From the NCBI RefSeq assembly GCF_016026235.1, contig NZ_CP065613.1: a stretch of 64,000 nt of DNA, one strand, 5' to 3'. Made by a program: the position numbers and the translations under genes. Numbering within the stretch: the stretch's first letter is position 1; every line of letters starts with the position of its first letter. Positions 1 through 19,604 of this stretch are shown here, in pieces. The notes under the pieces are model-generated. The model did no database searches. It saw nothing but the letters and a program-made list of their open reading frames with translations, and was not told the DNA's origin. Origin of the DNA: Escherichia coli (GTDB lineage: Bacteria > Pseudomonadota > Gammaproteobacteria > Enterobacterales > Enterobacteriaceae).

Positions 1-3
1 GGC

Positions 4-879
4 GTGATTTTCTTTGGCTTTGGCAATGGCGGGCAGTCGATTGGTTTTAGCAATCTCACAGAGCATGGCGGTTTCTTTGCGGGTGGCTGGAAAGGGTTCC
101 TGACCGCGCTGTGTATTGTGGTGGCGTCCTACCAGGGCGTGGAGCTGATTGGCATTACTGCCGGTGAAGCGAAGAATCCGCAGGTGACGCTGCGCAGTGC
201 CGTAGGCAAAGTGCTGTGGCGGATCCTGATTTTCTACGTAGGCGCGATTTTCGTTATCGTCACCATCTTCCCGTGGAATGAAATTGGCAGCAACGGCAGC
301 CCGTTCGTACTGACTTTTGCCAAAATCGGTATTACCGCAGCGGCGGGCATTATCAACTTTGTGGTGCTGACGGCTGCGCTCTCTGGCTGTAACAGCGGCA
401 TGTACAGTTGCGGACGTATGCTCTACGCACTGGCGAAAAACCGTCAGTTACCGGCGGCGATGGCGAAAGTTTCCCGTCACGGCGTACCAGTTGCGGGTGT
501 GGCAGTATCTATTGCTATTCTGCTAATTGGCTCATGCCTGAACTACATCATTCCCAATCCGCAGCGTGTGTTTGTCTACGTCTACAGTGCCAGCGTGCTT
601 CCGGGGATGGTGCCATGGTTTGTGATATTGATAAGCCAGCTGCGTTTTCGGCGTGCACATAAAGCGGCGATTGCCAGCCATCCGTTCCGCTCAATCCTGT
701 TCCCGTGGGCCAACTACGTAACAATGGCATTCCTGATTTGCGTTTTGATCGGCATGTACTTTAATGAAGATACGCGTATGTCGCTGTTTGTTGGCATCAT
801 CTTTATGCTGGCGGTGACGGCGATTTATAAAGTTTTTGGCCTTAATCGCCACGGGAAAGCGCATAAACTGGAGGAATAA
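4..879 (+). CDS. yifK: APC-family amino acid permease, 3' portion (gene starts upstream of window)
   Basis: ORF runs off the 5' edge; 291 aa polytopic membrane product typical of amino-acid permeases; sits immediately upstream of the argX-hisR-leuT-proM tRNA cluster as yifK does in E. coli. Confidence 0.85.
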
Positions 880-931
880 GCAGCAAAACGCACAAACCGT
901 AACCAAACGCGCAATTTATTTAAAAAGGGAC

Positions 932-960
932 TAGACAGAGGGGTGGGAAGTCCGTATTAT
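932..960 (+). promoter_or_regulatory. Candidate sigma70 promoter of the tRNA operon (TAGACA-17 bp-TATTAT)
   Basis: -35-like TAGACA at 932-937 and -10-like TATTAT at 955-960 with 17 bp spacing, about 20 bp upstream of tRNA-Arg. Confidence 0.4.
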
Positions 961-981
961 CCACCCCCGCAACGGCGCTAA

Positions 982-1058
<77 letters not shown>

Positions 1059-1115
1059 TTTAGTCCCGGCGCTTGAGCTGCGGTGGTAGTAATACCGCGT
1101 AACAAGATTTGTAGT

Positions 1116-1192
1116 GGTGGCTATAGCTCAGTTGGTAGAGCCCTGGATTGTGATTCCAGTTGTCGTGGGTTCGAATCCCATTAGCCACCCCA
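1116..1192 (+). tRNA. hisR: tRNA-His (anticodon GUG)
   Basis: GGUGGCUAUAGCUCAGUUGGUAGAGC...GGUUCGAAUCC...CCACCCCA with the extra 5' G typical of tRNA-His; anticodon loop UUGUGAU. Confidence 0.93.
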
Positions 1193-1212
1193 TTATTAGA
1201 AGTTGTGACAAT

Positions 1213-1299
1213 GCGAAGGTGGCGGAATTGGTAGACGCGCTAGCTTCAGGTGTTAGTGTCCTTACGGACGTGGGGGTTCAAGTCCCCCCCCTCGCACCA
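1213..1299 (+). tRNA. leuT: tRNA-Leu (anticodon CAG), long variable arm
   Basis: 87 nt class II tRNA GCGAAGGUGGCGGAAUUGGUAGACGCG...; anticodon loop CUUCAGGUG; GGUUCAAGUCC T-arm. Confidence 0.92.
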
Positions 1300-1341
1300 C
1301 GACTTTAAAGAATTGAACTAAAAATTCAAAAAGCAGTATTT

Positions 1342-1418
1342 CGGCGAGTAGCGCAGCTTGGTAGCGCAACTGGTTTGGGACCAGTGGGTCGGAGGTTCGA
1401 ATCCTCTCTCGCCGACCA
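1342..1418 (+). tRNA. proM: tRNA-Pro (anticodon UGG)
   Basis: CGGCGAGUAGCGCAGCUUGGUAGCGCA...UUUGGGA anticodon loop...GGUUCGAAUCC...GCCGACCA. Confidence 0.92.
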
Positions 1419-1424
1419 ATTTTG

Positions 1425-1452
1425 AACCCCGCTTCGGCGGGGTTTTTTGTTT
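1425..1452 (+). terminator. Rho-independent terminator of the tRNA operon
   Basis: GC-rich hairpin AACCCCGC-TTCG-GCGGGGTT followed by TTTTGTTTTC. Confidence 0.8.
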
Positions 1453-1564
1453 TCTGTGCATTTCGTCACCCTCCCTTCGCAATAAACGCCCGTAATAACT
1501 CATTGCCCCACGGTATGATTTCGCCCTTAACGTATTGAAGGATGACTTCAGGCAAGGAGTGACC

Positions 1565-2800
1565 ATGCTGCAACAGGTTCCAACGCGTGCTTTTCATGTG
1601 ATGGCGAAACCGAGTGGTTCCGATTGTAATCTGAACTGTGACTACTGTTTTTATCTCGAAAAACAATCCCTTTACCGCGAAAAGCCAGTCACGCATATGG
1701 ACGATGACACGCTGGAAGCGTATGTCCGTCACTATATCGCTGCCAGCGAACCGCAAAACGAAGTGGCTTTTACCTGGCAGGGCGGCGAACCAACGTTACT
1801 CGGGCTGGATTTTTACCGCCGTGCCGTAAAGTTACAGGCGAAATACGGTGCTGGCAGGAAGATAAGTAACAGCTTCCAGACTAACGGCGTGCTGCTCGAT
1901 GATAAATGGTGTGCATTTCTGGCAGAAAATCATTTTCTTGTTGGGTTATCGCTGGACGGTCCGGCTGAGATCCACAATCAATATCGCGTGACCAAAGGTG
2001 GCAGACCAACGCATAAGCTGGTGATGCGTGCCCTGACGCTGCTGCAAAAACATCATGTCGACTATAACGTGCTGGTCTGCGTCAACCGCACCAGCGCGCA
2101 GCAACCGTTGCAGGTTTATGATTTTTTGTGCGATGCGGGAGTCGAATTCATCCAGTTTATTCCGGTGGTCGAGCGCCTGGCTGATGAAACAGCTGCCAGC
2201 GATGGACTGAAACTACATGCGCCTGGTGATATTCAGGGGGAACTGACGGAATGGTCGGTGCGCCCCGATGAATTTGGTGAATTTCTGGTGGCGATATTCG
2301 ACCACTGGATCAAACGCGACGTCGGCAAGATTTTCGTGATGAATATCGAATGGGCGTTTGCCAATTTTGTCGGTGCGCCGGGTGCGGTTTGCCATCATCA
2401 GCCAACCTGTGGGCGCTCGGTGATTGTTGAGCACAACGGCGACGTTTACGCCTGCGATCACTATGTTTATCCGCAATATCGGCTGGGGAATATGCATCAG
2501 CAAACAATTGCAGAAATGATCGATTCCCCGCAACAGCAGGTGTTTGGTGAAGATAAATTTAAGCAATTACCGGCGCAGTGTCGCAGTTGTAACGTGTTAA
2601 AAGCGTGCTGGGGAGGCTGCCCGAAACACCGCTTCATGCTCGATGCCAGCGGCAAACCGGGGCTGAATTATTTGTGTGCCGGGTATCAGCGTTATTTCCG
2701 CCATCTACCGCCATATCTTAAAGCAATGGCTGATTTGCTGGCGCACGGTCGCCCGGCCAGTGACATTATGCAGGCACATTTGCTGGTGGTGAATAAGTAA
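1565..2800 (+). CDS. aslB: Anaerobic sulfatase-maturating enzyme, radical SAM (411 aa from ATG 1565; ORF track extends to 1535)
   Basis: N-terminal CxxxCxxC radical-SAM motif (CNLNCDYC) and C-terminal Cys-rich auxiliary cluster region; length and position after the tRNA operon match aslB. Confidence 0.9.
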   Translation: MLQQVPTRAFHVMAKPSGSDCNLNCDYCFYLEKQSLYREKPVTHMDDDTLEAYVRHYIAASEPQNEVAFTWQGGEPTLLGLDFYRRAVKLQAKYGAGRKISNSFQTNGVLLDDKWCAFLAENHFLVGLSLDGPAEIHNQYRVTKGGRPTHKLVMRALTLLQKHHVDYNVLVCVNRTSAQQPLQVYDFLCDAGVEFIQFIPVVERLADETAASDGLKLHAPGDIQGELTEWSVRPDEFGEFLVAIFDHWIKRDVGKIFVMNIEWAFANFVGAPGAVCHHQPTCGRSVIVEHNGDVYACDHYVYPQYRLGNMHQQTIAEMIDSPQQQVFGEDKFKQLPAQCRSCNVLKACWGGCPKHRFMLDASGKPGLNYLCAGYQRYFRHLPPYLKAMADLLAHGRPASDIMQAHLLVVNK

Positions 2801-2835
2801 AAAAGCGGCCATTTTGTGGCCGCCTGCGGTTGATT

Positions 2836-2870
<35 letters not shown>

Positions 2871-2883
2871 TGATCGTGCAAAT

Positions 2884-3045
2884 TCAATAAATTGCAGCGT
2901 TCTGTGGATACTGGTTTGGGTGATCGTATCCGGCAAAGCCTTTGCGTGCGGTGGCAGTTGACGGGGTATCTGCTGCGCTGGCCATGAGAGGAAGAGCGGC
3001 GGCGACAGCAACAACAAGAAGTTTGGGTGAAAACGAAAATTCCAT
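2884..3045 (-). pseudogene. aslA: 5' stub of a periplasmic protein gene, probably arylsulfatase aslA; rest of gene absent
   Basis: Minus-strand ATG at 3045 encodes [28 protein letters not shown]..., a classic Sec signal peptide with AXA site, then stops after 53 codons; this is where aslA is expected (convergent with aslB, before glmZ/hemY) but only ~160 bp remain. Confidence 0.45.
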
Positions 3046-3469
3046 GCAAAATGCTCCGGTTTCATGTCATCAAAATGATGACGTAATTAAGCATTGATAA
3101 TTGAGATCCCTCTCCCTGACAGGATGATTACATAAATAATAGTGACAAAAATAAATTATTTATTTATCCAGAAAATGAATTGGAAAATCAGGAGAGCGTT
3201 TTCAATCCTACCTCTGGCGCAGTTGATATGTAAGGCAGGTTTATTATATCGCGTTGATTATTGATGCTTTTTTTAGTTTTAACGGCAATTAATATATGTG
3301 TTATTAATTGAATGAATTTTATCATTCATAATAAGTATGTGTAGGATCAAGCTCAGGTTAAATATTCACTCAGGAAGTTATTACTCAGGAAGCAAAGAGG
3401 ATTACAGAATTATCTCATAACAAGTGTTAAGGGATGTTATTTCCCGATTCTCTGTGGCATAATAAACGG

Positions 3470-3676
3470 GTAGATGCTCATTCCATCTCTTATGTTCGCC
3501 TTAGTGCCTCATAAACTCCGGAATGACGCAGAGCCGTTTACGGTGCTTATCGTCCACTGACAGATGTCGCTTATGCCTCATCAGACACCATGGACACAAC
3601 GTTGAGTGAAGCACCCACTTGTTGTCATACAGACCTGTTTTAACGCCTGCTCCGTAATAAGAGCAGGCGTTTTTTT
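3470..3676 (+). ncRNA. glmZ: GlmZ (SraJ/RyiA) small regulatory RNA
   Basis: Sequence GTAGATGCTCATTCCATCTCTTATGTTCGCC...ends in hairpin AACGCCTGCTC-CGTAATAA-GAGCAGGCGTT plus T7 tract; matches my recollection of GlmZ in the aslA-hemY intergenic region; -10-like CATAAT at 3458-3463. Exact 5' end uncertain. Confidence 0.65.
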
Positions 3677-3723
3677 ATGCATCAGAAAGGTCCCGGAGGT
3701 GCTTGCCTCCGGGTGAGAAGGAA

Positions 3724-4920
3724 CTACTGTGGTGGGTTGTTCTGCAACGTTAACATCAAACCGTCGCGACGCATCGCTGCAGCTTCTTCCGGCTTGTGCA
3801 GTCTGTCCAGCGCGTCGGCAAGCCATGCGTAATCGTAGGCGTCCGGACGTTGTTTCAGCGCCGCGCGGAAGGCGAGCGATGCTTCCTGCCATTCTCCGTG
3901 CTTCATCAGTGACTGGCCCAGTGTGCTCCACAACAGCGGGCGATCGCCGACGTTTTTGATCTGCTGGCGCAGCACTTTTTCCAGCTGTTCCGGATTGTTG
4001 GTTTTCAGTCGAGGAATCGGCAGCAGTAGGCGATCGTCGTACTGGCGTTTCAGGCCATCGATGATAATTTGCTGGGCAGTATCATGATCGTCACATTCAA
4101 TAAGATGTTCCGCCATTGCCACCTGCAACGCTACCTGATGACGCGTTTTCCGGCTTTGGTTTTTCCACCAGTTACGCAAACCTTCACTACCGTTATCGGC
4201 ACGCGCCTGATCCATCAGGCCAATCCATGCCTGTTGTTCCAGCATTGCACGATGTTCTTCATCACCAACATGGGCTTTCGCCATTGATGGGATGATATCC
4301 AGCAGCGAACTCCATGCACCTGTGCGGATATACGCCTGTTCCGCCAGACGTAATACTTCCGGATGGCGTGGCGTAACTTCCAGCAGCTTATCCACGCCGT
4401 GGCGTGCAGCATGGTTTTCATTACGGGCCAGTTGCAGACGTACACGGGTGATTTCTACCGGAATGGTGTCATTGCCGGCCAGCTCTGCTGCGCGTTCCAG
4501 ATGTTGGTTGGCGCGTGCTTCATCACCACGTTGTTGCGCGGCTTCGGCAGCCAGTAGATAGTTCACCACCGGTTGTTCCGCGTGATCGGCATTTTTCGCC
4601 ATCAGCTTTTCAACTTGCTGATAATCGCCTTCCGCCAGTTTCAGCAGCGCCTGTTCGGTCTGCTTACGGGCACGGCGACGCTTACGTCCGACAAACCACC
4701 CACGGGTGTGTGCGCCTGTGCGGAAGATCCGCCGCAGTAGCCACTCAATGGCAAACAGCACTACCATCGCCAGAATCAAAATAATCGCCAGGCCCGTGAC
4801 GCTGGTTTCGATATTGTAGTTGTCAGTCTGGATCAGCACGTAACCCTGATGACCGGCAATCATCGGGCCAACCACTATCCCCGCAATCAGCAAAACAAAG
4901 AGTAATAACACTTTTAGCAT
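3724..4920 (-). CDS. hemY: HemY, inner membrane TPR-repeat protein of the heme pathway operon
   Basis: 398 aa ORF with N-terminal TM segments and TPR-like repeats; last gene of hemCDXY on minus strand. Confidence 0.9.
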   Translation of the reverse strand: MLKVLLLFVLLIAGIVVGPMIAGHQGYVLIQTDNYNIETSVTGLAIILILAMVVLFAIEWLLRRIFRTGAHTRGWFVGRKRRRARKQTEQALLKLAEGDYQQVEKLMAKNADHAEQPVVNYLLAAEAAQQRGDEARANQHLERAAELAGNDTIPVEITRVRLQLARNENHAARHGVDKLLEVTPRHPEVLRLAEQAYIRTGAWSSLLDIIPSMAKAHVGDEEHRAMLEQQAWIGLMDQARADNGSEGLRNWWKNQSRKTRHQVALQVAMAEHLIECDDHDTAQQIIIDGLKRQYDDRLLLPIPRLKTNNPEQLEKVLRQQIKNVGDRPLLWSTLGQSLMKHGEWQEASLAFRAALKQRPDAYDYAWLADALDRLHKPEEAAAMRRDGLMLTLQNNPPQ

Positions 4921-4922
4921 GG

Positions 4923-6176
4923 TTATTCTCCTTGCGGCGCGGCTGCCGGAGTATCACCTTGCGGTGCAGGTGCAGGTGCAGGTGCAGGTGCAGGTGCAGG
5001 TGCAGGTGCAGGTGCAGGTGCAGGTGCAGGTGCAGGTGCAGGTGCAGGTTTAGCTTCCGTTGTCCCCGCTGCCGGTTGTGCCAGCAGGTTACGCACGCGG
5101 GTCTGCATCAGTTTTTCCAGCATCGCCTGGCTTTGCAGGGTTTCCGGAAGATCCATCGAGATATTTTGCTGGCTTAACTGGTCCACCTCGTCGAGGAACG
5201 CTTTGGTGGTGGCATCATCAGTATCGTAGTAAGCACGTACCCAGGTGGAGACGTTCTCCAGCGCCTGGCGATAAGTCTCTTCCTGGTGACGCGGTACAGC
5301 TTGTGCTGCGACCAGCAGGCGAGAGCGAATATTTTCGCGCAGATAGATATCCTGATTTGGCGCTAACAGCGGTACGGCGGTGTCATCACGACGGCGAATC
5401 GTAATGAAGTTGTCCATAAAGTTCTGCCAGCTTTTTTGCAGATTGATACGCCATTCGCTGATGGAACTGGAAAGCTCTTCACCGTCGGAATCCATCGGCG
5501 AACCATCGCTGTCATTATCGGCCAGACGCAGGTTATCTACCTGATTTGAAAGCTGATTAAGCTTAAGGATGATGCCGTCATAATCCACCTGCGAAACTGC
5601 AGAAAGGCTGGCGATATCATCGGTAATTGCCCGACGAACGGTAATCAGACTCGGGTCATTCATATCCGCCAGGCTGGCATCTGCACTTTTCAGCAACGCT
5701 GCAGCGGTCGTGACGTCCTGATCGCTCCACAGCTTCCGTCCGGCGAGTTTCACCAGAAAATCGGCCTGAGCCAGCAGCCAGGTTTTAGCATCGCTGCCGG
5801 AAATGGTGGCGACCTTTTGTTGGACTTCATCCAACTGTTTTGCCAGCGTTTCTTGCTGACGATTCGCCTGCTTAAGCTGTGCAGCTTGTTGCTTAATAAT
5901 GCCTTCCAGCTCGGCTTTTTGGCTCTCCTGGGCTTTTTGCAATGCCGTCAGTTGGTTAGCCAGGGCATCGCTGGTGGCGGTCTGATTGACGGCCTGTTGT
6001 TTACCCCAGCCATACAAACCGACGCCCGCCGCCAGAGCAATAGCGATAGCCACCGCGCTGAGAATCAATGCGGTATTGTTCTTACTCTTTTTTTCTGTTG
6101 CGACAGGTTGTGACGTGGTGTCCACGGCCTCCCTGGTCTCTTCAACCACGGCGGAGGTTTTTTCTTGTTCCGTCAT
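4923..6176 (-). CDS. hemX: HemX, membrane protein with C-terminal (Pro-Ala)n tract
   Basis: 417 aa ORF adjacent to hemY/hemD; coiled-coil region rich in Q/A/L and terminal PAPAPA... repeat. Confidence 0.88.
4963..5046. repeat. Perfect tandem hexanucleotide repeat (GGTGCA)x14 encoding (Pro-Ala)n in hemX
   Basis: Counted directly: 14 contiguous GGTGCA units on the plus strand (TGCACC on the coding strand). Confidence 0.95.
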
Positions 6177-6197
6177 TATGGCTTCCTGTTATGAGAG

Positions 6198-6938
6198 TTA
6201 TTGTAATGCCCGTAAAAGCGCATCGTTGTCAGCGTTATCGGCGACCTTAATGTCTTGCCAGCCCAGTTCCCGGGCGAGTTTCGCCAAACGCTCACTGACG
6301 ACCAATAGTCGACAGCGTAGTAACCAGTGCTCACGATACCATTGTGGGATCAGCGACCAGAGTTGCTGCAACATTTCACCGCTGGTAACAACGACCGTCG
6401 TCACCTCGCGGGATTGCCAGCGCATCGCTTCTTCTGCACCATCGTAATGGATTGCGCATCGTTGATAACATTCACAAAAAGTGACCTCAGCACCGCGCGC
6501 TGTCAGGGTATCCCCAATTAGCTCACGACCGCCATTGCCACGTAATATCAGCGCACGTTTGCCCGCAATATTTTGTAATTCAGGTAATTGTAGCAAGACT
6601 TCGCTGATTTCCCGATCCTGCGGGTAGAGAATCTTCTGTCCGCTTACGGTATGTAGCGCCAGTGCGGTGGTGCGTCCAATGGCGAAATAATCAGGTAGTC
6701 GGGGCCATTTACGATCTTGCTGATGCAGCTGTGATTGGGCAAAAGCAACCGCGTGTTGCGAGAGGGCAAACAGCAGATCGCTCTCCCCCAGCGCCGCCAG
6801 TTGATCAGCAAGTTGCGGTAATTGTCGACCCGGAGAAAACTCAATCAGCGGAAAATGCCAGGCCACCTGCCCCAGTGTGCGCAGACGGCTCACTAACTCT
6901 TCTCCAGCGGGAGACGGGCGGGTGACCAGGATACTCAT
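6198..6938 (-). CDS. hemD: Uroporphyrinogen-III synthase
   Basis: 246 aa ORF; 4 bp overlap with hemC stop region; conserved position in hemCDXY. Confidence 0.9.
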
Positions 6939-7876
6939 GTCGGGGCGTCTCCGTTATAGACTTCAGCGAGGATCTCGCGCGCGCCGTTATTCAGTAGCTC
7001 TTCTGCCAGCGAAATCCCCATTTGTTCGGCATCTTGCGGCGCACCGCGGCGTTCACCGCGAATAATCTGCGAACCGTCCGGCGCGCCGACCAGCGCACGC
7101 AGCCAGATTTCACCATCAATAAGCTCGGCGTAGCTACCAATTGGCACCTGACATCCGCCTTCGAGACGGGTATTCATGGCGCGTTCTGCGGTAACGCGCA
7201 GTGCAGTTTCGTGGTGATTCAGCGCGGCAAGCAGCTCGCGAGTGCGTGCATCATCAAGGCGGCATTCAATACCCACCGCACCTTGCCCTACCGCCGGAAG
7301 AGAAATCTCGGGTGGCAACGCGGCGCGAATACGTGACTCCAGACCTAAACGTTTTAGTCCGGCTACGGCAAGAATGATGGCATCGTATTCGCCGTTATCT
7401 AGTTTGCTCAGGCGAGTGCCGACGTTGCCGCGCAGGGAGCGGATAATCAGATCCGGGCGGCGTTCAGCCAGTTGGCACTGGCGACGTAAACTGGACGTCC
7501 CGACGATACTGCCTGCCGGTAACGCATCCAGACTGTCATAATTATTGGACACAAAGGCATCGCGAGGATCTTCACGCTCACAAATAGTGACCAACCCCAG
7601 ACCTTGCGGGAATTCAACCGGCACATCTTTCATTGAATGTACGGCGATATCGGCGCGATTCTCCAGGAGCGCGACTTCCAGCTCTTTTACAAATAAGCCT
7701 TTTCCGCCTACTTTCGCCAGCGGCGTATCAAGAATCACATCGCCGCGCGTCACCATCGGTACCAGTTCAACCACCAGGCCCGGATGGCTCGCCATCAACT
7801 TGTCTTTGACATAGTGTGCCTGCCAGAGTGCAAGTGGGCTTTGGCGTGTGGCAATTCTTAAAACATTGTCTAACAT
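6935..7876 (-). CDS. hemC: Porphobilinogen deaminase / hydroxymethylbilane synthase (313 aa from ATG 7876; ORF track extends to 7897)
   Basis: Product begins [20 protein letters not shown]... as HemC does; first gene of hemCDXY, divergent from cyaA. Confidence 0.92.
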
Positions 7877-8262
7877 GCTTGTTACCGTCATTATCATCCG
7901 TGGTCCATCCTAACATCCTTGCCAGAGTGATGTCAGTGTTGTGGTGAAACGTAGACGCTTGCGCAAACCGTAAAATGAGGTCTGGCAGTGGATCCTGACA
8001 GGCGTTTCACGCCGTCGTAATAAGGAATTTACAGAGAATAAACGGTGCTACACTTGTATGTAGCGCATCTTTCTTTACGGTCAATCAGCAAGGTGTTAAA
8101 TTGATCACGTTTTAGACCATTTTTTCGTCGTGAAACTAAAAAAACCAGGCGCGAAAAGTGGTAACGGTTACCTTTGACATACGAAATATCCCGAATGCCG
8201 CGTGTTACCGTTGATGTTGGCGGAATCACAGTCATGACGGGTAGCAAATCAGGCGATACGTC

Positions 8263-10809
8263 TTGTACCTCTATATTGAGACTCTGAAACAGAGACTGGA
8301 TGCCATAAATCAATTGCGTGTGGATCGCGCGCTTGCTGCTATGGGGCCTGCATTCCAACAGGTCTACAGTCTACTGCCGACATTGTTGCACTATCACCAT
8401 CCGCTAATGCCGGGTTACCTTGATGGTAACGTTCCCAAAGGCATTTGCCTTTACACGCCTGATGAAACTCAACGCCACTACCTGAACGAGCTTGAACTGT
8501 ATCGTGGAATGTCAGTACAGGACCCACCGAAAGGTGAGCTTCCAATTACTGGTGTATACACCATGGGCAGCACCTCGTCCGTAGGGCAAAGTTGTTCCTC
8601 TGACCTGGATATCTGGGTCTGTCATCAATCCTGGCTCGATAGCGAAGAGCGCCAGTTACTACAACGTAAATGTAGTCTGCTGGAAAGCTGGGCCGCCTCG
8701 CTGGGTGTGGAAGTCAGCTTCTTCCTGATTGATGAAAACCGCTTCCGTCATAATGAAAGCGGCAGCCTGGGGGGCGAAGATTGTGGCTCCACCCAGCATA
8801 TACTGCTGCTTGACGAATTTTATCGTACCGCCGTGCGTCTCGCCGGTAAGCGTATTCTGTGGAATATGGTGCCGTGCGACGAAGAAGAGCATTACGACGA
8901 CTATGTGATGACGCTTTACGCGCAGGGCGTGCTGACGCCAAATGAATGGCTGGATCTCGGTGGCTTAAGCTCGCTTTCTGCTGAAGAGTACTTTGGTGCC
9001 AGCCTTTGGCAGCTCTACAAGAGTATCGATTCCCCATACAAAGCGGTACTGAAAACACTGCTGCTGGAAGCCTATTCCTGGGAATACCCGAACCCACGTC
9101 TGCTGGCGAAAGATATCAAACAGCGTTTGCACGACGGCGAGATTGTATCGTTTGGTCTCGATCCATACTGCATGATGCTGGAGCGTGTTACTGAATACCT
9201 GACGGCGATTGAAGATTTTACCCGTCTGGATTTAGTACGTCGCTGCTTCTATTTAAAAGTGTGCGAAAAGCTCAGCCGTGAACGCGCCTGCGTAGGCTGG
9301 CGTCGCGCAGTGTTGAGCCAGTTAGTGAGCGAGTGGGGTTGGGACGAAGCTCGTCTGGCAATGCTCGATAACCGTGCTAACTGGAAGATTGATCAGGTGC
9401 GTGAGGCGCACAACGAGCTGCTCGACGCGATGATGCAGAGCTACCGTAATCTGATCCGCTTTGCGCGTCGCAATAACCTTAGCGTCTCCGCCAGTCCGCA
9501 GGATATCGGCGTACTGACGCGTAAACTGTATGCCGCGTTTGAAGCATTGCCAGGTAAAGTGACGCTGGTAAACCCGCAGATTTCGCCCGATCTCTCGGAA
9601 CCGAATCTGACCTTTATTTATGTGCCGCCGGGCCGTGCTAACCGTTCAGGTTGGTATCTGTATAACCGCGCGCCAAATATTGAGTCGATCATCAGCCATC
9701 AGCCGCTGGAATATAACCGTTACCTGAATAAACTGGTGGCGTGGGCATGGTTTAACGGTCTGCTGACCTCGCGCACCCGTTTGTATATTAAAGGTAACGG
9801 CATTGTCGATTTGCCTAAGTTGCAGGAGATGGTCGCCGACGTGTCGCACCATTTCCCGCTGCGCTTACCTGCACCGACACCGAAGGCGCTCTACAGCCCG
9901 TGTGAGATCCGCCATCTGGCGATTATCGTTAACCTGGAATATGACCCGACAGCGGCGTTCCGCAATCAGGTGGTGCATTTTGATTTCCGTAAGCTGGATG
10001 TCTTCAGCTTTGGCGAGAATCAAAATTGCCTGGTAGGTAGCGTTGACCTGCTGTACCGCAACTCGTGGAACGAAGTGCGTACGCTGCACTTCAACGGCGA
10101 GCAATCGATGATCGAAGCCCTGAAAACTATTCTCGGCAAAATGCATCAGGACGCCGCACCGCCAGATAGCGTGGAAGTCTTCTGTTATAGCCAGCATCTG
10201 CGCGGCTTAATCCGTACTCGCGTGCAGCAACTGGTTTCTGAGTGTATTGAACTGCGCCTTTCCAGCACCCGCCAGGAAACCGGGCGTTTCAAGGCGCTGC
10301 GCGTTTCTGGTCAAACCTGGGGGTTGTTCTTCGAACGCCTGAATGTATCGGTACAAAAACTGGAAAACGCCATCGAGTTTTATGGCGCTATTTCGCATAA
10401 CAAACTGCACGGCCTGTCAGTGCAGGTTGAAACCAATCACGTCAAATTACCGGCGGTGGTGGACGGCTTTGCTAGTGAAGGGATCATCCAGTTCTTCTTC
10501 GAAGAAACGCAAGACGAGAATGGCTTTAATATCTACATTCTTGACGAAAGCAACCGGGTTGAGGTGTATCACCACTGCGAAGGCAGCAAAGAGGAACTGG
10601 TGCGTGACGTCAGTCGCTTCTACTCGTCATCGCACGACCGCTTCACCTACGGCTCAAGCTTCATCAACTTCAACCTGCCGCAGTTCTATCAGATTGTGAA
10701 GGTTGATGGTCGTGAACAGGTGATTCCGTTCCGCACAAAATCTATCGGTAACATGCCGCCTGCCAATCAGGATCACGATACGCCGCTATTACAGCAATAT
10801 TTTTCGTGA
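8263..10809 (+). CDS. cyaA: Adenylate cyclase, class I (848 aa, TTG start)
   Basis: 848 aa ORF beginning TTG TAC CTC TAT ATT GAG ([19 protein letters not shown]...); cyaA is known to use a TTG start. Confidence 0.95.
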
Positions 10810-10848
10810 TGAACGTGCCGGAAAGCGAGGCTTATCCGGCATGCAATC

Positions 10849-11169
10849 TTAGCGGAAACTGACTGTTTCACCCGCCTGCTGCGTCGCCGCCTGTTCCAGC
10901 AAATCCCAGAAGGTTTCGCCGCTGCGATCGCAAATCCACTCATCGCCTTTCAGATCAAAATGGTAGCCGCCTTGTTTGGTTGCCAGCCATACCTGGTGCA
11001 GCGGTTCCTGGCGGTTGATAATGATTTTGCTGCCGTTTTCAAAGGTAATGGTCAGCACGCCGCCGTTGATTTCGCAGTCGATATCGCTGTCGCCATCCCA
11101 GTCGTCCAGACGCTCTTCAATGGTCAGCCACAGTTGATCAGCCAGGCGATGAAATTCACTGTCGTTCAT
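10849..11169 (-). CDS. cyaY: Frataxin homolog, iron-binding protein
   Basis: 106 aa acidic product [33 protein letters not shown]...; convergent with cyaA. Confidence 0.92.
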
Positions 11170-11631
11170 TGTTGTATCCTGTTTTTAAGTGATGGCGGCA
11201 GTATAGCGGCATGGGGTCAGGGCTTCAAAGTTTGCACCTCTGCTGCTGCGTTCCGGCATGATTCATCCGTCACCGGAATAATGATGTCTCTGTGTAGCGA
11301 AAGATTTGTCTCTTCATTAGGGCGCAGTTACACCACGCCTTTCCCTGTTTCTGGTAAACATTATGATCAGGTTTACCGAGCGAGCATCCTCACGCTGACG
11401 GAACTAAAAAAGCCAACAAACAAACTACATTGCGATAGTGCATAGAGCCATCTTGGCGCGAGGTGCCGATCACGAAACTACCAGCAAAACATAAATCCCC
11501 ACGAGTAAGCGTTATACTCGCAGCATTTCCTCACTTTTCAGACTTTATAAAGAGTCGCTAAACGCTTGCTTTTACGTCTTCTCCTGCGATGATAGAAAGC
11601 AGAAAGCGATGAACTTTACAGGCAATCCATA

Positions 11632-11835
11632 ATGAAAAACGTGTTTAAGGCACTCACTGTATTACTTACTCTCTTCAGCCTGACGGGCTGCGGTCTGAAA
11701 GGTCCGCTCTATTTCCCGCCTGCAGATAAAAATGCACCGCCGCCGACCAAACCGGTAGAGACGCAAACGCAATCCACGGTGCCGGATAAAAACGATCGCG
11801 CCACTGGCGATGGTCCATCCCAGGTGAATTACTAA
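11632..11835 (+). CDS. yifL: Small lipoprotein
   Basis: 67 aa with lipobox (LFSLTGC) immediately upstream of dapF. Confidence 0.8.
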   Translation: MKNVFKALTVLLTLFSLTGCGLKGPLYFPPADKNAPPPTKPVETQTQSTVPDKNDRATGDGPSQVNY

Positions 11836-11871
11836 AAGTCAGTTTCTGTACCCGCGTGATTGGAGTAAATG

Positions 11872-12696
11872 ATGCAGTTCTCGAAAATGCATGGCCTTGG
11901 CAACGATTTTATGGTCGTCGACGCGGTAACGCAGAATGTCTTTTTTTCACCGGAGCTGATTCGTCGCCTGGCTGATCGGCACCTGGGGGTAGGGTTTGAC
12001 CAACTGCTGGTGGTTGAGCCGCCGTATGATCCTGAACTGGATTTTCACTATCGCATTTTCAATGCTGATGGCAGTGAAGTGGCGCAGTGCGGCAACGGTG
12101 CGCGCTGCTTTGCCCGTTTTGTTCGTCTGAAAGGACTGACCAATAAGCGTGATATCCGCGTCAGCACCGCCAACGGGCGGATGGTTCTGACCGTCACCGA
12201 TGATGATCTGGTCCGCGTAAATATGGGCGAACCCAACTTCGAACCTTCCGCCGTGCCGTTTCGCGCTAACAAAGCGGAAAAGACCTATATTATGCGCGCC
12301 GCCGAGCAGACAATCTTATGCGGCGTGGTGTCGATGGGAAATCCGCATTGCGTGATTCAGGTCGATGATGTCGATACCGCGGCGGTAGAAACGCTTGGTC
12401 CTGTTCTGGAAAGCCACGAGCGTTTTCCGGAGCGCGCCAATATCGGTTTTATGCAAGTGGTTAAGCGCGAGCATATTCGTTTACGCGTTTATGAGCGTGG
12501 GGCAGGAGAAACCCAGGCCTGCGGCAGCGGCGCGTGTGCGGCGGTTGCAGTAGGGATTCAGCAAGGTTTGCTGGCCGAAGAAGTACGCGTGGAACTCCCC
12601 GGCGGTCGTCTTGATATCGCCTGGAAAGGTCCGGGTCACCCGTTATATATGACTGGCCCGGCGGTACATGTCTACGACGGATTTATTCATCTATGA
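11872..12696 (+). CDS. dapF: Diaminopimelate epimerase
   Basis: 274 aa, [19 protein letters not shown]..., catalytic Cys motifs (GNGARC, SGACA). Confidence 0.95.
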
Positions 12697-13400
12697 AGCA
12701 ACCAGGGGAAGAACTGCAGGAAACACTCACGGAGCTTGATGACCGGGCGGTTGTCGATTATCTGATTAAAAATCCTGAGTTTTTTATCCGTAATGCGCGC
12801 GCAGTAGAAGCGATACGTGTGCCGCATCCGGTACGCGGCACCGTTTCGTTGGTCGAGTGGCACATGGCCCGCGCACGTAATCATATTCATGTTCTGGAAG
12901 AGAACATGGCGCTGTTGATGGAACAGGCTATCGCCAACGAAGGCCTGTTTTATCGCCTACTCTACCTGCAGCGCAGTCTCACCGCCGCCAGCAGTCTCGA
13001 CGATATGCTGATGCGCTTTCACCGCTGGGCGCGCGATCTCGGCCTGGCAGGTGCGAGTCTGCGCCTGTTTCCGGATCGCTGGCGCTTAGGTGCGCCGTCG
13101 AACCACACTCATCTGGCATTAAGCCGTCAGTCTTTCGAACCGCTGCGTATTCAGCGTTTGGGGCAGGAACAGCACTATCTTGGACCGCTTAACGGACCTG
13201 AGCTGCTGGTGGTGCTACCTGAAGCGAAAGCAGTGGGATCGGTGGCGATGTCGATGCTGGGAAGCGATGCTGATTTGGGTGTCGTGCTGTTTACCAGTCG
13301 CGATGCCAGTCACTATCAACAAGGGCAAGGAACGCAGTTACTTCATGAAATTGCGCTGATGTTGCCGGAGCTTCTGGAGCGTTGGATTGAACGCGTATGA
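12693..13400 (+). CDS. yigA: DUF484-family protein
   Basis: 235 aa ORF, 4 bp overlap with dapF and xerC; dapF-yigA-xerC-yigB operon layout. Confidence 0.85.
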
Positions 13401-14293
13401 CCGATTTACACACCGATGTAGAACGCTACCTACGTTATCTGAGCGTGGAGCGCCAGCTTAGCCCGATAACCCTGCTTAACTACCAGCGTCAGCTTGAGGC
13501 GATCATCAATTTTGCCAGCGAAAACGGCCTGCAAAGCTGGCAGCAATGTGATGTGACGATGGTGCGCAATTTTGCTGTACGCAGTCGCCGTAAAGGGCTG
13601 GGAGCAGCAAGCCTCGCGTTACGGCTTTCTGCGCTACGTAGCTTTTTTGACTGGCTGGTCAGCCAGAACGAACTCAAAGCTAACCCGGCGAAAGGTGTTT
13701 CGGCACCGAAAGCGCCGCGTCATCTGCCGAAAAATATCGACGTCGACGATATGAATCGGCTGCTGGACATTGATATCAACGATCCCCTCGCTGTACGCGA
13801 CCGTGCAATGCTGGAAGTGATGTACGGCGCGGGTCTGCGTCTTTCCGAGCTGGTGGGGCTGGATATCAAACACCTCGACCTGGAGTCTGGTGAAGTGTGG
13901 GTAATGGGGAAAGGCAGCAAAGAGCGCCGCCTGCCGATTGGTCGCAACGCTGTGGCGTGGATTGAGCACTGGCTTGATTTGCGCGACCTGTTTGGTAGCG
14001 AAGACGACGCGCTTTTTCTGTCGAAACTGGGCAAGCGTATCTCCGCGCGTAATGTGCAGAAACGCTTTGCCGAATGGGGCATAAAACAAGGGCTGAATAA
14101 TCACGTTCATCCGCATAAATTACGTCACTCGTTCGCCACGCATATGCTGGAGTCGAGCGGCGATCTTCGTGGTGTGCAGGAGCTGCTGGGTCATGCCAAC
14201 CTCTCCACCACGCAAATCTATACTCATCTTGATTTTCAACACCTTGCCTCGGTGTACGATGCGGCGCATCCACGCGCCAAACGGGGGAAATAA
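13397..14293 (+). CDS. xerC: Tyrosine site-specific recombinase XerC
   Basis: 298 aa; C-terminal R..HxxR..Y catalytic signature ([10 protein letters not shown]...[14 protein letters not shown]). Confidence 0.95.
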
Positions 14294-15009
14294 TGCGTTT
14301 TTACCGGCCTTTGGGGCGCATCTCGGCGCTCACCTTTGACCTGGATGATACCCTTTACGATAACCGTCCGGTGATTTTGCGCACCGAGCGAGAGGCGCTT
14401 ACCTTTGTGCAAAATTATCATCCGGCGCTGCGCAGCTTCCAGAATGAAGATCTGCAACGCCTGCGCCAGGCGGTACGGGAAGCGGAACCCGAGATTTATC
14501 ACGACGTGACGCGTTGGCGTTTTCGTTCGATTGAACAAGCGATGCTCGACGCCGGGCTGAGTGCCGAAGAAGCCAGTGCAGGCGCACACGCAGCAATGAT
14601 TAACTTTGCCAAATGGCGCAGCCGAATCGACGTCCCGCAGCAAACTCACGACACCTTAAAACAGCTGGCGAAGAAATGGCCGCTGGTGGCGATCACCAAC
14701 GGTAACGCCCAGCCGGAACTGTTTGGTTTGGGGGATTATTTTGAGTTTGTGCTGCGCGCTGGCCCGCACGGGCGCTCAAAACCGTTCAGCGATATGTACT
14801 TTTTGGCTGCGGAAAAACTCAACGTGCCGATCGGCGAGATCTTACATGTTGGGGACGATCTCACCACTGACGTGGGTGGGGCAATTCGCAGCGGAATGCA
14901 GGCTTGTTGGATCAGACCGGAAAATGGCGATCTGATGCAAACCTGGGACAGCCGTTTACTGCCGCATCTGGAAATTTCCCGGTTGGCATCTCTGACCTCG
15001 CTGATATAA
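14293..15009 (+). CDS. yigB: HAD-superfamily phosphatase
   Basis: 238 aa; N-terminal DxD motif (FDLDDTLYD). Confidence 0.88.
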
Positions 15010-15018
15010 TCAGCAAAT

Positions 15019-15034
15019 CTGTATATATACCCAG
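15019..15034. promoter_or_regulatory. LexA (SOS) box upstream of uvrD
   Basis: CTGTATATATACCCAG, a CTG-N10-CAG palindrome-like site 60 bp upstream of the uvrD ATG. Confidence 0.6.
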
Positions 15035-15092
15035 CTTTTTGGCGGAGGGCGTTGCGCTTCTCCGCCCAACCTATTTTTACGCGGCGGTGCCA

Positions 15093-17255
15093 ATGGACGT
15101 TTCTTACCTGCTCGACAGCCTTAATGACAAACAGCGCGAAGCGGTGGCCGCGCCACGCAGCAACCTTCTGGTGCTGGCGGGCGCGGGCAGTGGTAAGACG
15201 CGCGTACTGGTGCATCGTATCGCCTGGCTGATGAGCGTGGAAAACTGCTCGCCATACTCGATTATGGCTGTGACGTTTACCAACAAAGCGGCGGCGGAGA
15301 TGCGTCATCGTATCGGGCAACTGATGGGCACCAGCCAGGGCGGCATGTGGGTCGGCACCTTCCACGGGCTGGCGCACCGTTTGCTGCGTGCGCACCATAT
15401 GGACGCCAATCTACCGCAGGATTTCCAGATCCTCGACAGTGAAGACCAGCTACGCCTGCTTAAGCGTCTGATCAAAGCCATGAACCTCGACGAGAAGCAG
15501 TGGCCGCCGCGCCAGGCAATGTGGTACATCAACAGCCAGAAAGATGAAGGCCTGCGTCCGCATCATATTCAAAGCTACGGTAATCCGGTGGAGCAGACCT
15601 GGCAGAAGGTGTATCAGGCGTATCAGGAAGCGTGTGACCGCGCGGGCCTGGTGGACTTCGCCGAGCTGCTGCTGCGCGCTCACGAACTGTGGCTTAACAA
15701 GCCGCATATCCTACAACACTACCGCGAACGTTTTACCAATATCCTGGTGGACGAATTCCAGGATACCAACAACATTCAGTACGCGTGGATCCGCCTGCTG
15801 GCGGGCGACACCGGCAAAGTGATGATCGTCGGTGATGACGACCAGTCAATCTACGGCTGGCGTGGGGCGCAGGTGGAGAATATTCAGCGTTTCCTTAATG
15901 ATTTCCCCGGTGCCGAAACTATTCGTCTGGAGCAAAACTACCGCTCTACCAGCAATATTCTGAGCGCCGCTAACGCCCTGATTGAAAACAACAACGGGCG
16001 TCTGGGTAAAAAACTGTGGACCGATGGCGCGGACGGTGAGCCTATTTCCCTCTATTGCGCTTTTAACGAACTCGATGAAGCGCGTTTTGTGGTTAACCGC
16101 ATCAAAACCTGGCAGGACAACGGCGGGGCGCTTGCCGAGTGCGCCATTCTCTACCGCAGTAACGCCCAGTCGCGTGTGCTGGAAGAAGCACTGTTGCAGG
16201 CGAGTATGCCGTACCGTATTTACGGCGGGATGCGCTTCTTCGAACGCCAGGAAATCAAAGATGCGCTCTCGTATCTGCGCCTGATTGCCAACCGTAACGA
16301 CGACGCGGCCTTTGAGCGTGTGGTGAATACGCCAACGCGGGGTATTGGTGACCGGACGCTGGACGTGGTACGTCAGACATCGCGCGATCGCCAGTTAACA
16401 CTCTGGCAGGCATGTCGTGAACTGTTGCAGGAAAAAGCCCTCGCCGGACGTGCTGCCAGCGCCTTACAGCGGTTTATGGAACTGATCGACGCCTTAGCGC
16501 AGGAAACTGCCGATATGCCGCTGCATGTACAGACTGACCGGGTAATTAAAGACTCCGGCCTGCGTACCATGTACGAGCAGGAGAAGGGCGAAAAAGGTCA
16601 GACGCGTATCGAAAACTTAGAGGAACTGGTGACGGCAACGCGCCAGTTCAGCTACAACGAAGAAGACGAAGATTTAATGCCGCTGCAGGCGTTCCTATCC
16701 CATGCGGCGCTGGAAGCAGGCGAAGGGCAGGCGGATACCTGGCAGGATGCGGTACAACTGATGACCATGCACTCGGCGAAAGGTCTGGAGTTCCCGCAGG
16801 TGTTTATCGTCGGTATGGAAGAGGGCATGTTCCCAAGCCAGATGTCGCTGGATGAAGGCGGGCGTCTGGAAGAAGAACGCCGTCTGGCCTACGTTGGCGT
16901 AACCCGCGCGATGCAGAAACTGACGCTGACCTACGCGGAAACTCGCCGTCTGTATGGCAAAGAGGTTTACCATCGCCCGTCGCGCTTTATTGGCGAGCTG
17001 CCGGAAGAGTGTGTGGAAGAGGTGCGCCTGCGCGCCACGGTAAGCCGCCCGGTCAGCCATCAGCGGATGGGTACGCCGATGGTCGAGAACGACAGCGGCT
17101 ACAAGCTCGGCCAGCGTGTACGCCACGCTAAGTTTGGTGAAGGCACCATCGTCAATATGGAAGTCAGCGGTGAACATAGCCGTTTGCAGGTGGCATTCCA
17201 GGGCCAGGGAATCAAATGGCTGGTGGCAGCTTACGCCCGGCTGGAGTCGGTGTAA
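15093..17255 (+). CDS. uvrD: DNA helicase II (720 aa from ATG 15093; ORF track over-extends upstream to 14904)
   Basis: MDVSYLLDSLNDKQREAVAAP...; Walker A GAGSGKT; UvrD/Rep helicase motifs. Confidence 0.95.
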   Translation: MDVSYLLDSLNDKQREAVAAPRSNLLVLAGAGSGKTRVLVHRIAWLMSVENCSPYSIMAVTFTNKAAAEMRHRIGQLMGTSQGGMWVGTFHGLAHRLLRAHHMDANLPQDFQILDSEDQLRLLKRLIKAMNLDEKQWPPRQAMWYINSQKDEGLRPHHIQSYGNPVEQTWQKVYQAYQEACDRAGLVDFAELLLRAHELWLNKPHILQHYRERFTNILVDEFQDTNNIQYAWIRLLAGDTGKVMIVGDDDQSIYGWRGAQVENIQRFLNDFPGAETIRLEQNYRSTSNILSAANALIENNNGRLGKKLWTDGADGEPISLYCAFNELDEARFVVNRIKTWQDNGGALAECAILYRSNAQSRVLEEALLQASMPYRIYGGMRFFERQEIKDALSYLRLIANRNDDAAFERVVNTPTRGIGDRTLDVVRQTSRDRQLTLWQACRELLQEKALAGRAASALQRFMELIDALAQETADMPLHVQTDRVIKDSGLRTMYEQEKGEKGQTRIENLEELVTATRQFSYNEEDEDLMPLQAFLSHAALEAGEGQADTWQDAVQLMTMHSAKGLEFPQVFIVGMEEGMFPSQMSLDEGGRLEEERRLAYVGVTRAMQKLTLTYAETRRLYGKEVYHRPSRFIGELPEECVEEVRLRATVSRPVSHQRMGTPMVENDSGYKLGQRVRHAKFGEGTIVNMEVSGEHSRLQVAFQGQGIKWLVAAYARLESV

Positions 17256-17330
17256 CGTTGCCGGATGCGGTGCTGCGCACCTTATTTGGCCTAAAAAATC
17301 ATTCATATTCAATAAATTGCAACGTCATGT

Positions 17331-17364
17331 ATGCCGGATAGGGCGTTTACGCCGCATCCGGCAT
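17331..17364. repeat. REP element
   Basis: ATGCCGGATAGGGCGTTTACGCCGCATCCGGCAT palindromic unit downstream of uvrD. Confidence 0.7.
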
Positions 17365-17401
17365 CTGCGCCATCTTCAGTATCTGACACAAAACTATCGT
17401 T

Positions 17402-19268: not shown

Positions 19269-19604
19269 CACCTTCTGCTGACCGTTTTCGATGTACAAAC
19301 CGAGCGGCGCATAGCTTTCATCATAGATGCCGCCGTTCATCGCCATCTGCACCTGACCCTGACTATTCATATCCGCCAGCAGAGCATGTAACGTTCCCCA
19401 CGCTTCGCCATTAGCTTTTTGCCAGTACATTTTCACCCGCTCTGTTTGAGGATTAACGGTATACGCCTGTACGGTCAGCGTCGGATCTGAGAGTGCGCAA
19501 TCATCAGCGGCAACAGCAAACAAGGGAAGTAAGGTGAGGGTGAGAAAAATCTGTTTGAGATTCAAGGTGATCATTCCTTTACCAATGAGTAGCCGATGCG
19601 CCAT
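19269..19604 (-). pseudogene. yigE: yigE 5' portion (signal peptide and N-terminal domain), truncated by IS4
   Basis: 112 aa ORF with N-terminal signal peptide (LTLTLLPLFAVAADD) that runs into the IS4 right end. Confidence 0.75.

What the first reader, a model, noticed from the sequence alone, without database searches (positions are those of the whole stretch)
4963..5046. Perfect 14-unit hexanucleotide tandem repeat inside hemX encoding a (Pro-Ala)n tail - likely length-variable
GGTGCA is repeated 14 times without a single interruption, encoding a PAPAPA... tract near the HemX C-terminus. Perfect in-frame microsatellites of this length are rare in E. coli coding DNA and are prone to slipped-strand changes in copy number. 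This HemX is 417 aa, whereas I recall K-12 HemX as ~393 aa (uncertain), which would fit copy-number variation here. The tract may act as a flexible periplasmic spacer.
Basis: partly seen in the sequence, partly recalled or inferred. Interest (0 to 1): 0.3.

Follow-up and report, generated by a model that had tools for sequence, protein, structure and literature searches.

The report
Known hemX tandem repeat (MLVA locus CVN014)
The perfect 14-copy GGTGCA repeat in hemX is real and its copy number does vary between E. coli strains, but it is the long-known strain-typing marker CVN014, so the finding is correct and ordinary.

Summary
GGTGCA x14 sits at window 4963..5046 without an interruption. 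On the minus strand it reads (CCT GCA)14 and encodes (Pro-Ala)14, residues 377-404 of a 417-aa HemX.

In 5425 complete E. coli genomes the array runs from 0 to 25 units in steps of 6 bp. About 2.8% of genomes have 14 or more units.

It is not new. The published primers of the generic E. coli MLVA locus CVN014 match the window once each and bracket the array. The published size formula gives allele 14. CVN014 is described in the literature as the most variable locus of that scheme.

The most likely mechanism is replication slippage in a pure hexanucleotide array. The unit is a multiple of three, so the reading frame is kept and only the length of a C-terminal tail changes. That tail lies outside the Pfam HemX domain and is predicted to be unfolded.

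Three things suggest the length is near-neutral. An intact hemX exists with the array deleted. Tails of HemX relatives vary from 0 to 118 residues. Citrobacter sedlakii has a different repeat at the same place. The "spacer" idea is unsupported: only 13 residues follow the tract, and the last eight codons are conserved at the nucleotide level as the hemY ribosome-binding region.

The parts
4963..5046 (-). Perfect hexanucleotide array: GGTGCA x14 on the + strand, (CCT GCA)14 on the coding strand, encoding (Pro-Ala)14 at HemX residues 377-404. Period-6 identity continues to 5049.
4878..4901 (+). Binding site of the published CVN014 forward primer (TCCCCGCAATCAGCAAMACAAAGA). It lies in the first codons of hemY.
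   Evidence: Exact single match. Primer sequence taken from Table 1 of PMC8143711.
5053..5072 (-). Binding site of the published CVN014 reverse primer (GCAGCRGGGACAACGGAAGC). The amplicon 4878..5072 is 195 bp, and (195-111)/6 = allele 14.
   Evidence: Exact single match. Size formula from PMC8143711.
4923..6176 (-). hemX, 417 aa. The N-terminus is followed by one hydrophobic segment (about residues 36-57), a long helix, a helical HemX domain (Pfam 130-363) and an unstructured Pro/Ala-rich tail (367-417).
4923..4949 (-). Last 8 codons of hemX plus the stop (CCG GCA GCC GCG CCG CAA GGA GAA TAA). These are identical at the nucleotide level in E. coli, Salmonella and Citrobacter koseri, although upstream codons differ synonymously. 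They are inferred to form the hemY translation-initiation region. The Shine-Dalgarno sequence AAGGAG is at 4928..4933.
   Evidence: sequence
3724..4920 (-). hemY (HemY_N plus TPR, 398 aa). Its ATG lies 2 nt after the hemX stop, 43 nt downstream of the array.

Best explanation
The array is a variable-number tandem repeat inside hemX that is already known as locus CVN014 of the generic E. coli MLVA typing scheme. Its most likely mechanism is strand slippage during replication, which adds or removes whole 6-bp units in the pure (GGTGCA)n tract. The single strands can also fold into an imperfect hairpin, which would favour misalignment. Because the unit is two codons, each event adds or removes one Pro-Ala dipeptide, and the reading frame is kept. 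The stop codon and the downstream hemY ribosome-binding site also stay in place. The gene is therefore not switched on or off. Only the length of an unfolded C-terminal tail of HemX changes. From the sequence, that tail is probably periplasmic. Length appears to be tolerated over a wide range and is probably near-neutral, so the locus drifts quickly and serves as a strain marker. The 14-unit allele here is a long but not extreme allele, at about the 97th percentile. What is shown: the identity with CVN014, the polymorphism, the in-frame nature of the changes, and the position outside the folded domain. What is inferred: slippage as the mechanism, periplasmic location, and near-neutrality.
For: Identity with CVN014: both published primers match once each and bracket the array. 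The amplicon is 195 bp, which gives allele 14 by the published formula. No other primer of the scheme matches the window.

Polymorphism: the locus is present in 5425 of 5426 complete genomes. A 60-row systematic sample gives n = 0:1, 2:10, 3:2, 4:6, 5:9, 6:10, 7:6, 8:6, 9:3, 10:3, 11:1, 12:2, 13:1. The cumulative counts are as follows.
- n>=3: 4486 genomes
- n>=6: 3060 genomes
- n>=10: 870 genomes
- n>=14: 152 genomes
- n>=15: 111 genomes
The maximum is 25 units.

Alleles of 2 and 25 perfect units were read directly, and a 22-unit allele matched a synthetic query at 100% (H165).

The literature agrees. CVN014 is reported as the most polymorphic locus, with a range of 4-15 and a Nei index of 0.83 (PMC3519732). 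It varies within ST131 (PMC3407997; PMC3877011). O157:H7 genomes were seen here with 4, 12 and 17 units.

The tail lies outside the folded part of the protein. The Pfam HemX domain ends at residue 363. The AlphaFold2 model shows no secondary structure after residue 366, with pLDDT of 51-60 against more than 90 in the domain.

Length is tolerated. NCTC11023 has a 27-bp in-frame deletion that removes the array, and its hemX is intact at 384 aa. In 131 diverse HemX representatives the tail after the domain is 0-118 residues (median 16) with no conserved sequence. Salmonella has no PA repeat, and Citrobacter sedlakii has its own 9-bp repeat of 1-3 units at the same place.

Hairpin potential: -22.8 kcal/mol as DNA, z = -2.2; -33 and -35 kcal/mol with RNA parameters on the two strands.
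Against: No mutation rate or slippage event was measured here. Unequal recombination cannot be separated from slippage by sequence alone. Near-neutrality is inferred from natural variation and was not tested. The distribution is bounded, with a median of about 6 units and few alleles above 20, and long alleles cluster in one flank haplotype. Both patterns could reflect mutation bias or weak selection. The cumulative counts rest on a coverage formula for two-piece BLAST matches. That formula was checked only against the printed percentages and the independent 60-row sample. Periplasmic location of the tail is inferred from a single hydrophobic segment preceded by KKSK.
Confidence: 0.9

Rival explanations
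1. The (Pro-Ala)n tract is a functional, length-tuned rigid spacer. It would set how far the HemX C-terminus reaches across the periplasm, as in TonB or the OmpA hinge, and different lineages would select different lengths.
For: XP-type repeats are known to form extended, fairly stiff segments (own knowledge). At about 0.3 nm per residue, 0-25 units would span 0 to about 15 nm, comparable to the width of the periplasm. HemX is described as a distant Mic60 homologue, and Mic60 is proposed to make inner-outer membrane contacts (bioRxiv 10.1101/2022.06.14.496148). Long alleles are concentrated on one flank haplotype: 22 of the 25 genomes with 18 or more units, against 21% of all genomes.
Against: Only 13 residues follow the tract. 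Their last eight codons are invariant at the nucleotide level while nearby codons change synonymously, which points to an RNA-level constraint from the hemY ribosome-binding region and away from a conserved peptide. A natural allele with no array keeps hemX intact. Close clones differ by many units. Tails across the family have no conserved length or sequence. Salmonella lacks the repeat.
Confidence: 0.06
2. Repeat number modulates expression of the downstream gene hemY. This would work through mRNA structure or ribosome transit time across the Pro-rich tract, because hemY initiation is coupled to hemX termination 43 nt downstream.
For: The hemY Shine-Dalgarno sequence lies inside the last hemX codons, and its ATG is 2 nt after the stop. 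The Shine-Dalgarno sequence is predicted to be fully paired in the free mRNA, which suggests dependence on ribosomes that are translating hemX.
Against: Predicted pairing of the Shine-Dalgarno sequence and the AUG is identical for 0-25 units. Alternating Pro-Ala is not a known strong ribosome-stalling motif, unlike consecutive prolines (own knowledge). The frame and stop are unchanged in all in-frame alleles.
Confidence: 0.03
3. The count of 14 is an assembly artefact, meaning the repeat is mis-sized in this genome.
For: The reads could not be inspected. The window's genome is not in the collection: the best 25-kb match is 99.1% identical and carries only 3 units. Two sampled assemblies show 1-bp deletions inside the array that may be sequencing errors.
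Against: The array is 84 bp, short enough for single short reads to span. About 41 complete genomes carry 14 units and 111 carry more, so the allele is unremarkable. The array is perfect and in frame.
Confidence: 0.03
4. The array is a contingency (phase-variation) locus that switches hemX on and off.
For: Simple-sequence repeats inside genes often act this way in other bacteria (own knowledge). Two of the 60 sampled genomes have hemX annotated as frameshifted within the array.
Against: The unit is 6 bp, so slippage keeps the frame, and 57 of the 60 sampled alleles differ by exact multiples of 6. The array is at the extreme 3' end, after the whole folded domain. The two frameshifts are 1-bp losses and are not unit slippage.
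Confidence: 0.01

Closest known systems
CVN014, locus of the generic E. coli MLVA scheme (Lindstedt et al. 2007; GECM-7/GECM-10)
   Same: It is the same locus. Both primers match, the unit is 6 bp, the 111-bp offset fits, and the window carries allele 14. As reported, it is present in essentially all strains and is the most variable locus.
   Different: Nothing differs in kind. The open-access papers read here never name the gene. This analysis places the locus in the 3' tail of hemX. It also extends the allele range to 0-25, against 1-15 in the papers read.
In-frame hexanucleotide VNTRs inside genes of other enterics, e.g. Salmonella STTR5 in yohM/rcnA
   Same: These are 6-bp units inside a coding region that vary between close isolates and are used for outbreak typing. 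Extreme lengths are rare (PMC5183578).
   Different: STTR5 lies between two domains of the protein, and its length is argued to matter. The hemX array is in a terminal tail.
Proline-rich periplasmic spacers and hinges (TonB (EP)n(KP)n, the OmpA Ala-Pro hinge, Ala/Pro linkers of the AceF lipoyl domains)
   Same: They share alternating X-Pro composition, an expected extended conformation and an envelope location (own knowledge).
   Different: Those segments connect two functional modules. Here nothing folded follows the tract, and its length ranges from 0 to 25 units in nature.
Simple-sequence contingency loci (phase variation in Haemophilus, Neisseria, Campylobacter)
   Same: The presumed mutational mechanism, slippage in a pure short repeat, is the same.
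   Different: Those repeats have units that are not multiples of three, or they lie in promoters, so expression toggles. This one is in frame and 3'-terminal.

Membership tests
MLVA locus CVN014 | Published forward and reverse primers flank the array | tested here: met
   Exact single matches at 4878..4901(+) and 5053..5072(-), with none expected by chance. Primers taken from PMC8143711.
MLVA locus CVN014 | 6-bp unit with a 111-bp non-repeat offset in the amplicon | tested here: met
   The amplicon is 195 bp, and (195-111)/6 = 14.0, equal to the counted units.
MLVA locus CVN014 | Copy number polymorphic among E. coli strains, with the locus present in nearly all | tested here: met
   Present in 5425/5426 genomes, with 0-25 units.
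Variable-number tandem repeat evolving by slippage | Alleles differ by whole units while the flanks stay the same | tested here: met
   57 of 60 sampled spans differ by multiples of 6 bp. Alleles of 2, 14, 22 and 25 units are perfect and have the same junctions.
Variable-number tandem repeat evolving by slippage | Unit gains and losses observed directly at an elevated rate | not testable with these tools
   This needs mutation-accumulation or fluctuation experiments. The only indirect support is variation within ST131 and within O157:H7.
Phase-variable contingency locus | Slippage shifts the reading frame or changes promoter spacing, so that expression switches | tested here: not met
   The unit is 6 bp and in frame. 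The array sits at codons 377-404 of 417, after the folded domain.
Inter-domain Pro-rich spacer (TonB/OmpA-hinge type) | Connects two folded or functional modules | tested here: not met
   Only 13 unstructured residues follow the tract. Their conservation is at the nucleotide level, over the hemY ribosome-binding region.
Inter-domain Pro-rich spacer (TonB/OmpA-hinge type) | Length is functionally constrained | tested here: inconclusive
   A natural range of 0-25 units and a null allele with intact hemX argue against constraint, but no phenotype was measured.
HemX family (Pfam PF04375) | HemX domain above the curated threshold, in a hemC-hemD-hemX-hemY context | tested here: met
   360.8 bits against a cut-off of 25.9, over residues 130-363. 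Gene order.
Uroporphyrinogen-III C-methyltransferase (the name given in RefSeq) | A methyltransferase domain | tested here: not met
   The Pfam scan finds only HemX above threshold and no methyltransferase family. The literature calls the protein poorly characterised (PMC2704936).

The most novel reading that the evidence does not exclude
The length of the Pro-Ala tail is under lineage-specific selection. It could tune the periplasmic reach or interactions of HemX, a distant Mic60-like inner-membrane protein. Alternatively it could tune the coupled expression of hemY. In either case CVN014 alleles would carry a phenotype, for example in respiration or aminoglycoside tolerance, and would be more than neutral markers.
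Probability: 0.05. Interest if true: 0.45.

Novelty: already known. Interest (0 to 1): 0.1.

Why it matters
The practical value is modest. The analysis ties a widely used typing locus (CVN014) to an exact gene position, the disordered 3' tail of hemX just upstream of the hemY ribosome-binding site. It also gives an allele spectrum from 5425 complete genomes: 0-25 units, a median of about 6, and 14 or more units in 2.8%. This explains why HemX lengths differ between annotations. It also warns that hemX alleles in gene-by-gene typing or pangenome clustering will be inflated by repeat slippage and by occasional 1-bp errors inside the array. It does not open a new biological question unless the tail length turns out to have a phenotype.

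Tried and rejected
- **Literature on hemX as a VNTR.** Searches for hemX with VNTR or tandem repeat, and for GGTGCA with MLVA, returned nothing relevant. The link to CVN014 came only from testing printed primers against the window.
- **O157 and EHEC typing loci.** I tried to decide whether the array is also one of the O157-specific loci (O157-19/TR7, EHC-1 and others). The papers read give no primers or positions, so this was left open.
- **Effect on hemY initiation.** I tested whether repeat number changes the predicted accessibility of the hemY Shine-Dalgarno sequence or AUG. There was no change from 0 to 25 units, so that idea was downgraded.
- **Confirming the count of 14.** I looked for an independent assembly of the same strain. 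The window is not in the collection. The nearest 25-kb match is 99.1% identical and has 3 units.
- **Conserved C-terminal peptide.** I considered that the conserved ...APAAAPQGE end might be a functional peptide held at a distance by the tract. This was rejected as the main reading because conservation is at the nucleotide level.
- **Phase variation.** Rejected on unit length and position.
- **Full allele counts.** It was replaced by cumulative counts from synthetic queries plus a 60-row systematic sample.

Full report
**Observation.**
The window carries GGTGCA 14 times without interruption at 4963..5046. Period-6 identity runs on to 5049, giving 14.5 units (TRF score 174, 100% matches, no indels). 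On the minus strand the array is in frame as (CCT GCA)14 and encodes (Pro-Ala)14, residues 377-404 of a 417-aa ORF at 4923..6176.

That ORF has the Pfam HemX domain (PF04375, 360.8 bits, residues 130-363). It lies between hemD (6198..6938) and hemY (3724..4920), with hemC upstream. It is the only perfect repeat with a unit of 4-9 bases and at least 4 copies in the 64-kb window.

**What it is.**
The papers read describe a generic E. coli MLVA scheme whose most variable locus, CVN014, has a 6-bp unit and no null alleles. I took the CVN014 primers printed in Table 1 of PMC8143711 and searched the window.
- The forward primer matches exactly once, at 4878..4901 (+).
- The reverse primer matches exactly once, at 5053..5072 (-).
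- No matches are expected by chance.

The two sites bracket the array. The amplicon is 195 bp, and the published formula (size - 111)/6 gives 14, the number counted. No other primer of that scheme matches the window. The finding is therefore locus CVN014, allele 14, and it is already known as a variable-number tandem repeat.

**Is it polymorphic, and how unusual is 14?**
A megablast of window 4800..5250 against 5426 complete E. coli genomes found the locus in 5425 of them, always under hemX/hemY. In the 60 rows taken at even steps down the ranking, the span in the record differs from the query in 6-bp steps. This gives the following tally.

| units | 0 | 2 | 3 | 4 | 5 | 6 | 7 | 8 | 9 | 10 | 11 | 12 | 13 |
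|---|---|---|---|---|---|---|---|---|---|---|---|---|---|
| genomes | 1 | 10 | 2 | 6 | 9 | 10 | 6 | 6 | 3 | 3 | 1 | 2 | 1 |

To count over all genomes I used synthetic queries made of the window flanks plus N units. BLAST returns two pieces, and each runs through the n units of the record. Covered length is therefore flank + 8 + 12n. This relation reproduces the printed coverage percentages. The tool's count of genomes with at least 80% coverage then becomes a cumulative count.

| threshold | genomes | share |
|---|---|---|
| n>=3 | 4486 | 82.7% |
| n>=6 | 3060 | 56.4% |
| n>=10 | 870 | 16.0% |
| n>=14 | 152 | 2.8% |
| n>=15 | 111 | 2.0% |

These agree with the 60-row sample. About 41 genomes have exactly 14 units, so the window's allele sits near the 97th percentile. 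The longest alleles are 25 units (SD134209), 23, 22, then five genomes with 21.

Several alleles were checked directly.
- SD134209 has 25 perfect units.
- An O111:NM genome matches a 22-unit query at 100%.
- NCTC11023 has a 27-bp in-frame deletion that removes the array entirely. Its hemX is intact and annotated at 384 aa.
- Two sampled genomes carry a 1-bp deletion inside the array and are annotated as frameshifted. I could not tell whether these are errors.

Variation within clones is reported for ST131. O157:H7 genomes were seen here with 4, 12 and 17 units.

**Where the tract sits in the protein.**
The AlphaFold2 model was built from a 57-sequence alignment and has a mean pLDDT of 79. It shows an unstructured N-terminus, one long helix from residue 36 that includes the hydrophobic segment, and a confident helical domain up to residue 366. 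Residues 367-417 have no secondary structure and pLDDT of 51-60. The Pfam domain ends at residue 363. The tract is therefore in a terminal, probably disordered tail. With one hydrophobic segment preceded by KKSK, the tail is inferred to be periplasmic. This was not tested.

**What relatives show.**
In Escherichia, Citrobacter and Salmonella the protein ends with a conserved helix (...[16 protein letters not shown]), then a variable Pro/Ala/Thr-rich stretch, and finally ...APAAAPQGE.

At the DNA level the last eight codons and the stop (CCG GCA GCC GCG CCG CAA GGA GAA TAA) are identical in E. coli, Salmonella and C. koseri, although codons just upstream differ synonymously. The hemY Shine-Dalgarno sequence AAGGAG lies in the Gln-Gly-Glu codons, and the hemY ATG follows the stop by 2 nt. 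I therefore infer that this block is conserved as the hemY translation-initiation region and not as a peptide.

Salmonella has no PA repeat. C. sedlakii has its own 9-bp in-frame repeat, (GCA CCT GCC) x1-3, at the same place, giving 394-, 397- and 400-aa variants. Among 131 representatives of the HemX family at the 50% identity level, the tail after the domain ranges from 0 to 118 residues (median 16). It has no common sequence, and none has three or more PA units. The tail is thus a region where length and sequence are free to vary.

**Mechanism.**
The best-supported account is replication slippage in a pure hexanucleotide array.
- Alleles differ by whole units and share identical junctions.
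- The array is perfect, which indicates recent turnover.
- Either strand can fold into a stack of 4-bp helices: -22.8 kcal/mol as DNA with z = -2.2, and about -33 and -35 kcal/mol with RNA parameters.

Because the unit is two codons, the frame, the stop and the hemY initiation region are all preserved. This is length variation and not phase variation.

I tested one functional alternative in silico. Predicted pairing of the hemY Shine-Dalgarno sequence and the AUG does not change between 0 and 25 units. The idea of a length-tuned periplasmic spacer is not excluded. It is weakened by the null allele, by the wide natural range (0 to about 15 nm if extended), by the absence of any folded or peptide-level conserved element after the tract, and by the variation within clones.

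**HemX itself.**
The RefSeq name "uroporphyrinogen-III C-methyltransferase" finds no support in the Pfam scan. Three papers bear on its function.
- PMC2704936 calls HemX poorly characterised.
- A preprint describes it as a distant Mic60 homologue that lacks the mitofilin domain (bioRxiv 10.1101/2022.06.14.496148).
- PMC12282077 reports that the Keio hemX deletion is viable and less sensitive to gentamicin.

None of these papers addresses the tail.

**Verdict.**
The feature is a well-known typing locus, so novelty is nil and interest is low.

What this analysis adds is the exact gene context of CVN014 and an allele spectrum from complete genomes. It also shows that the sequence after the tract is conserved as RNA signal, not as protein. 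The remaining uncertainty concerns neutrality and the exact count in this assembly. Both need experiments or reads.

Noticed in passing
window 17909..19255 (+): An IS4-family transposase ORF (448 aa) is inserted in a 'phosphodiester glycosidase family' pseudogene between uvrD and corA. Among 5426 complete genomes, only strain 401651 (NZ_CM129040, Kenya) covers window 1..25000 completely and so shares this insertion. Its hemX has only 3 PA units.
   Followed up: partly
window 4953..4968 (flank of the array) and rows H121-H145: Long alleles are lineage-structured. Of the 25 genomes with 18 or more units, 22 have flanks at least 99.0% identical to the window's B1/IAI1-like haplotype, against 1154 of 5425 genomes overall. 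The SNP next to the array (CACC TTGC GGTG here, CAGC TTGC GGTG in K-12; Gly against Ala in QGD/QAD) creates a 4-bp inverted repeat with the first unit.
   Followed up: no
L004 (NZ_CM172722, FCI17) and L005 (NZ_OZ197100), inside the array: Two of the 60 sampled genomes have a 1-bp deletion within the array (GGTGC-GGTGCA), and hemX is annotated as 'frameshifted'. Whether this is a real mutation or a sequencing error was not resolved.
   Followed up: partly
L003 (NZ_LS483297, NCTC11023) 440..460: A natural 27-bp in-frame deletion removes the whole array and adjacent codons. hemX remains intact (384 aa) and the hemY initiation region is unchanged.
   Followed up: yes
L008 (Citrobacter sedlakii contig) 3' end of hemX, about 2620..2660: An independent 9-bp in-frame repeat, (GCA CCT GCC) x3, sits at the same position in the HemX tail. 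The protein database holds 394-, 397- and 400-aa variants corresponding to 1, 2 and 3 units.
   Followed up: partly
window 4923..4949 (-): The last eight hemX codons and the stop are identical at the nucleotide level in E. coli, Salmonella and C. koseri, while upstream codons vary synonymously. In the free mRNA the hemY Shine-Dalgarno sequence (4928..4933) is predicted to be fully paired, which suggests translational coupling of hemY to hemX.
   Followed up: partly
window 4923..6176 (-): The RefSeq product name for HemX, 'uroporphyrinogen-III C-methyltransferase', is not backed by any methyltransferase domain in the Pfam scan. It appears to be a legacy name.
   Followed up: partly
E. coli genome search summaries: Besides one place per chromosome, the searches report one matching place on a plasmid, at least one genome with two places, and one genome of the 5426 without the locus. 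None of these was examined.
   Followed up: no
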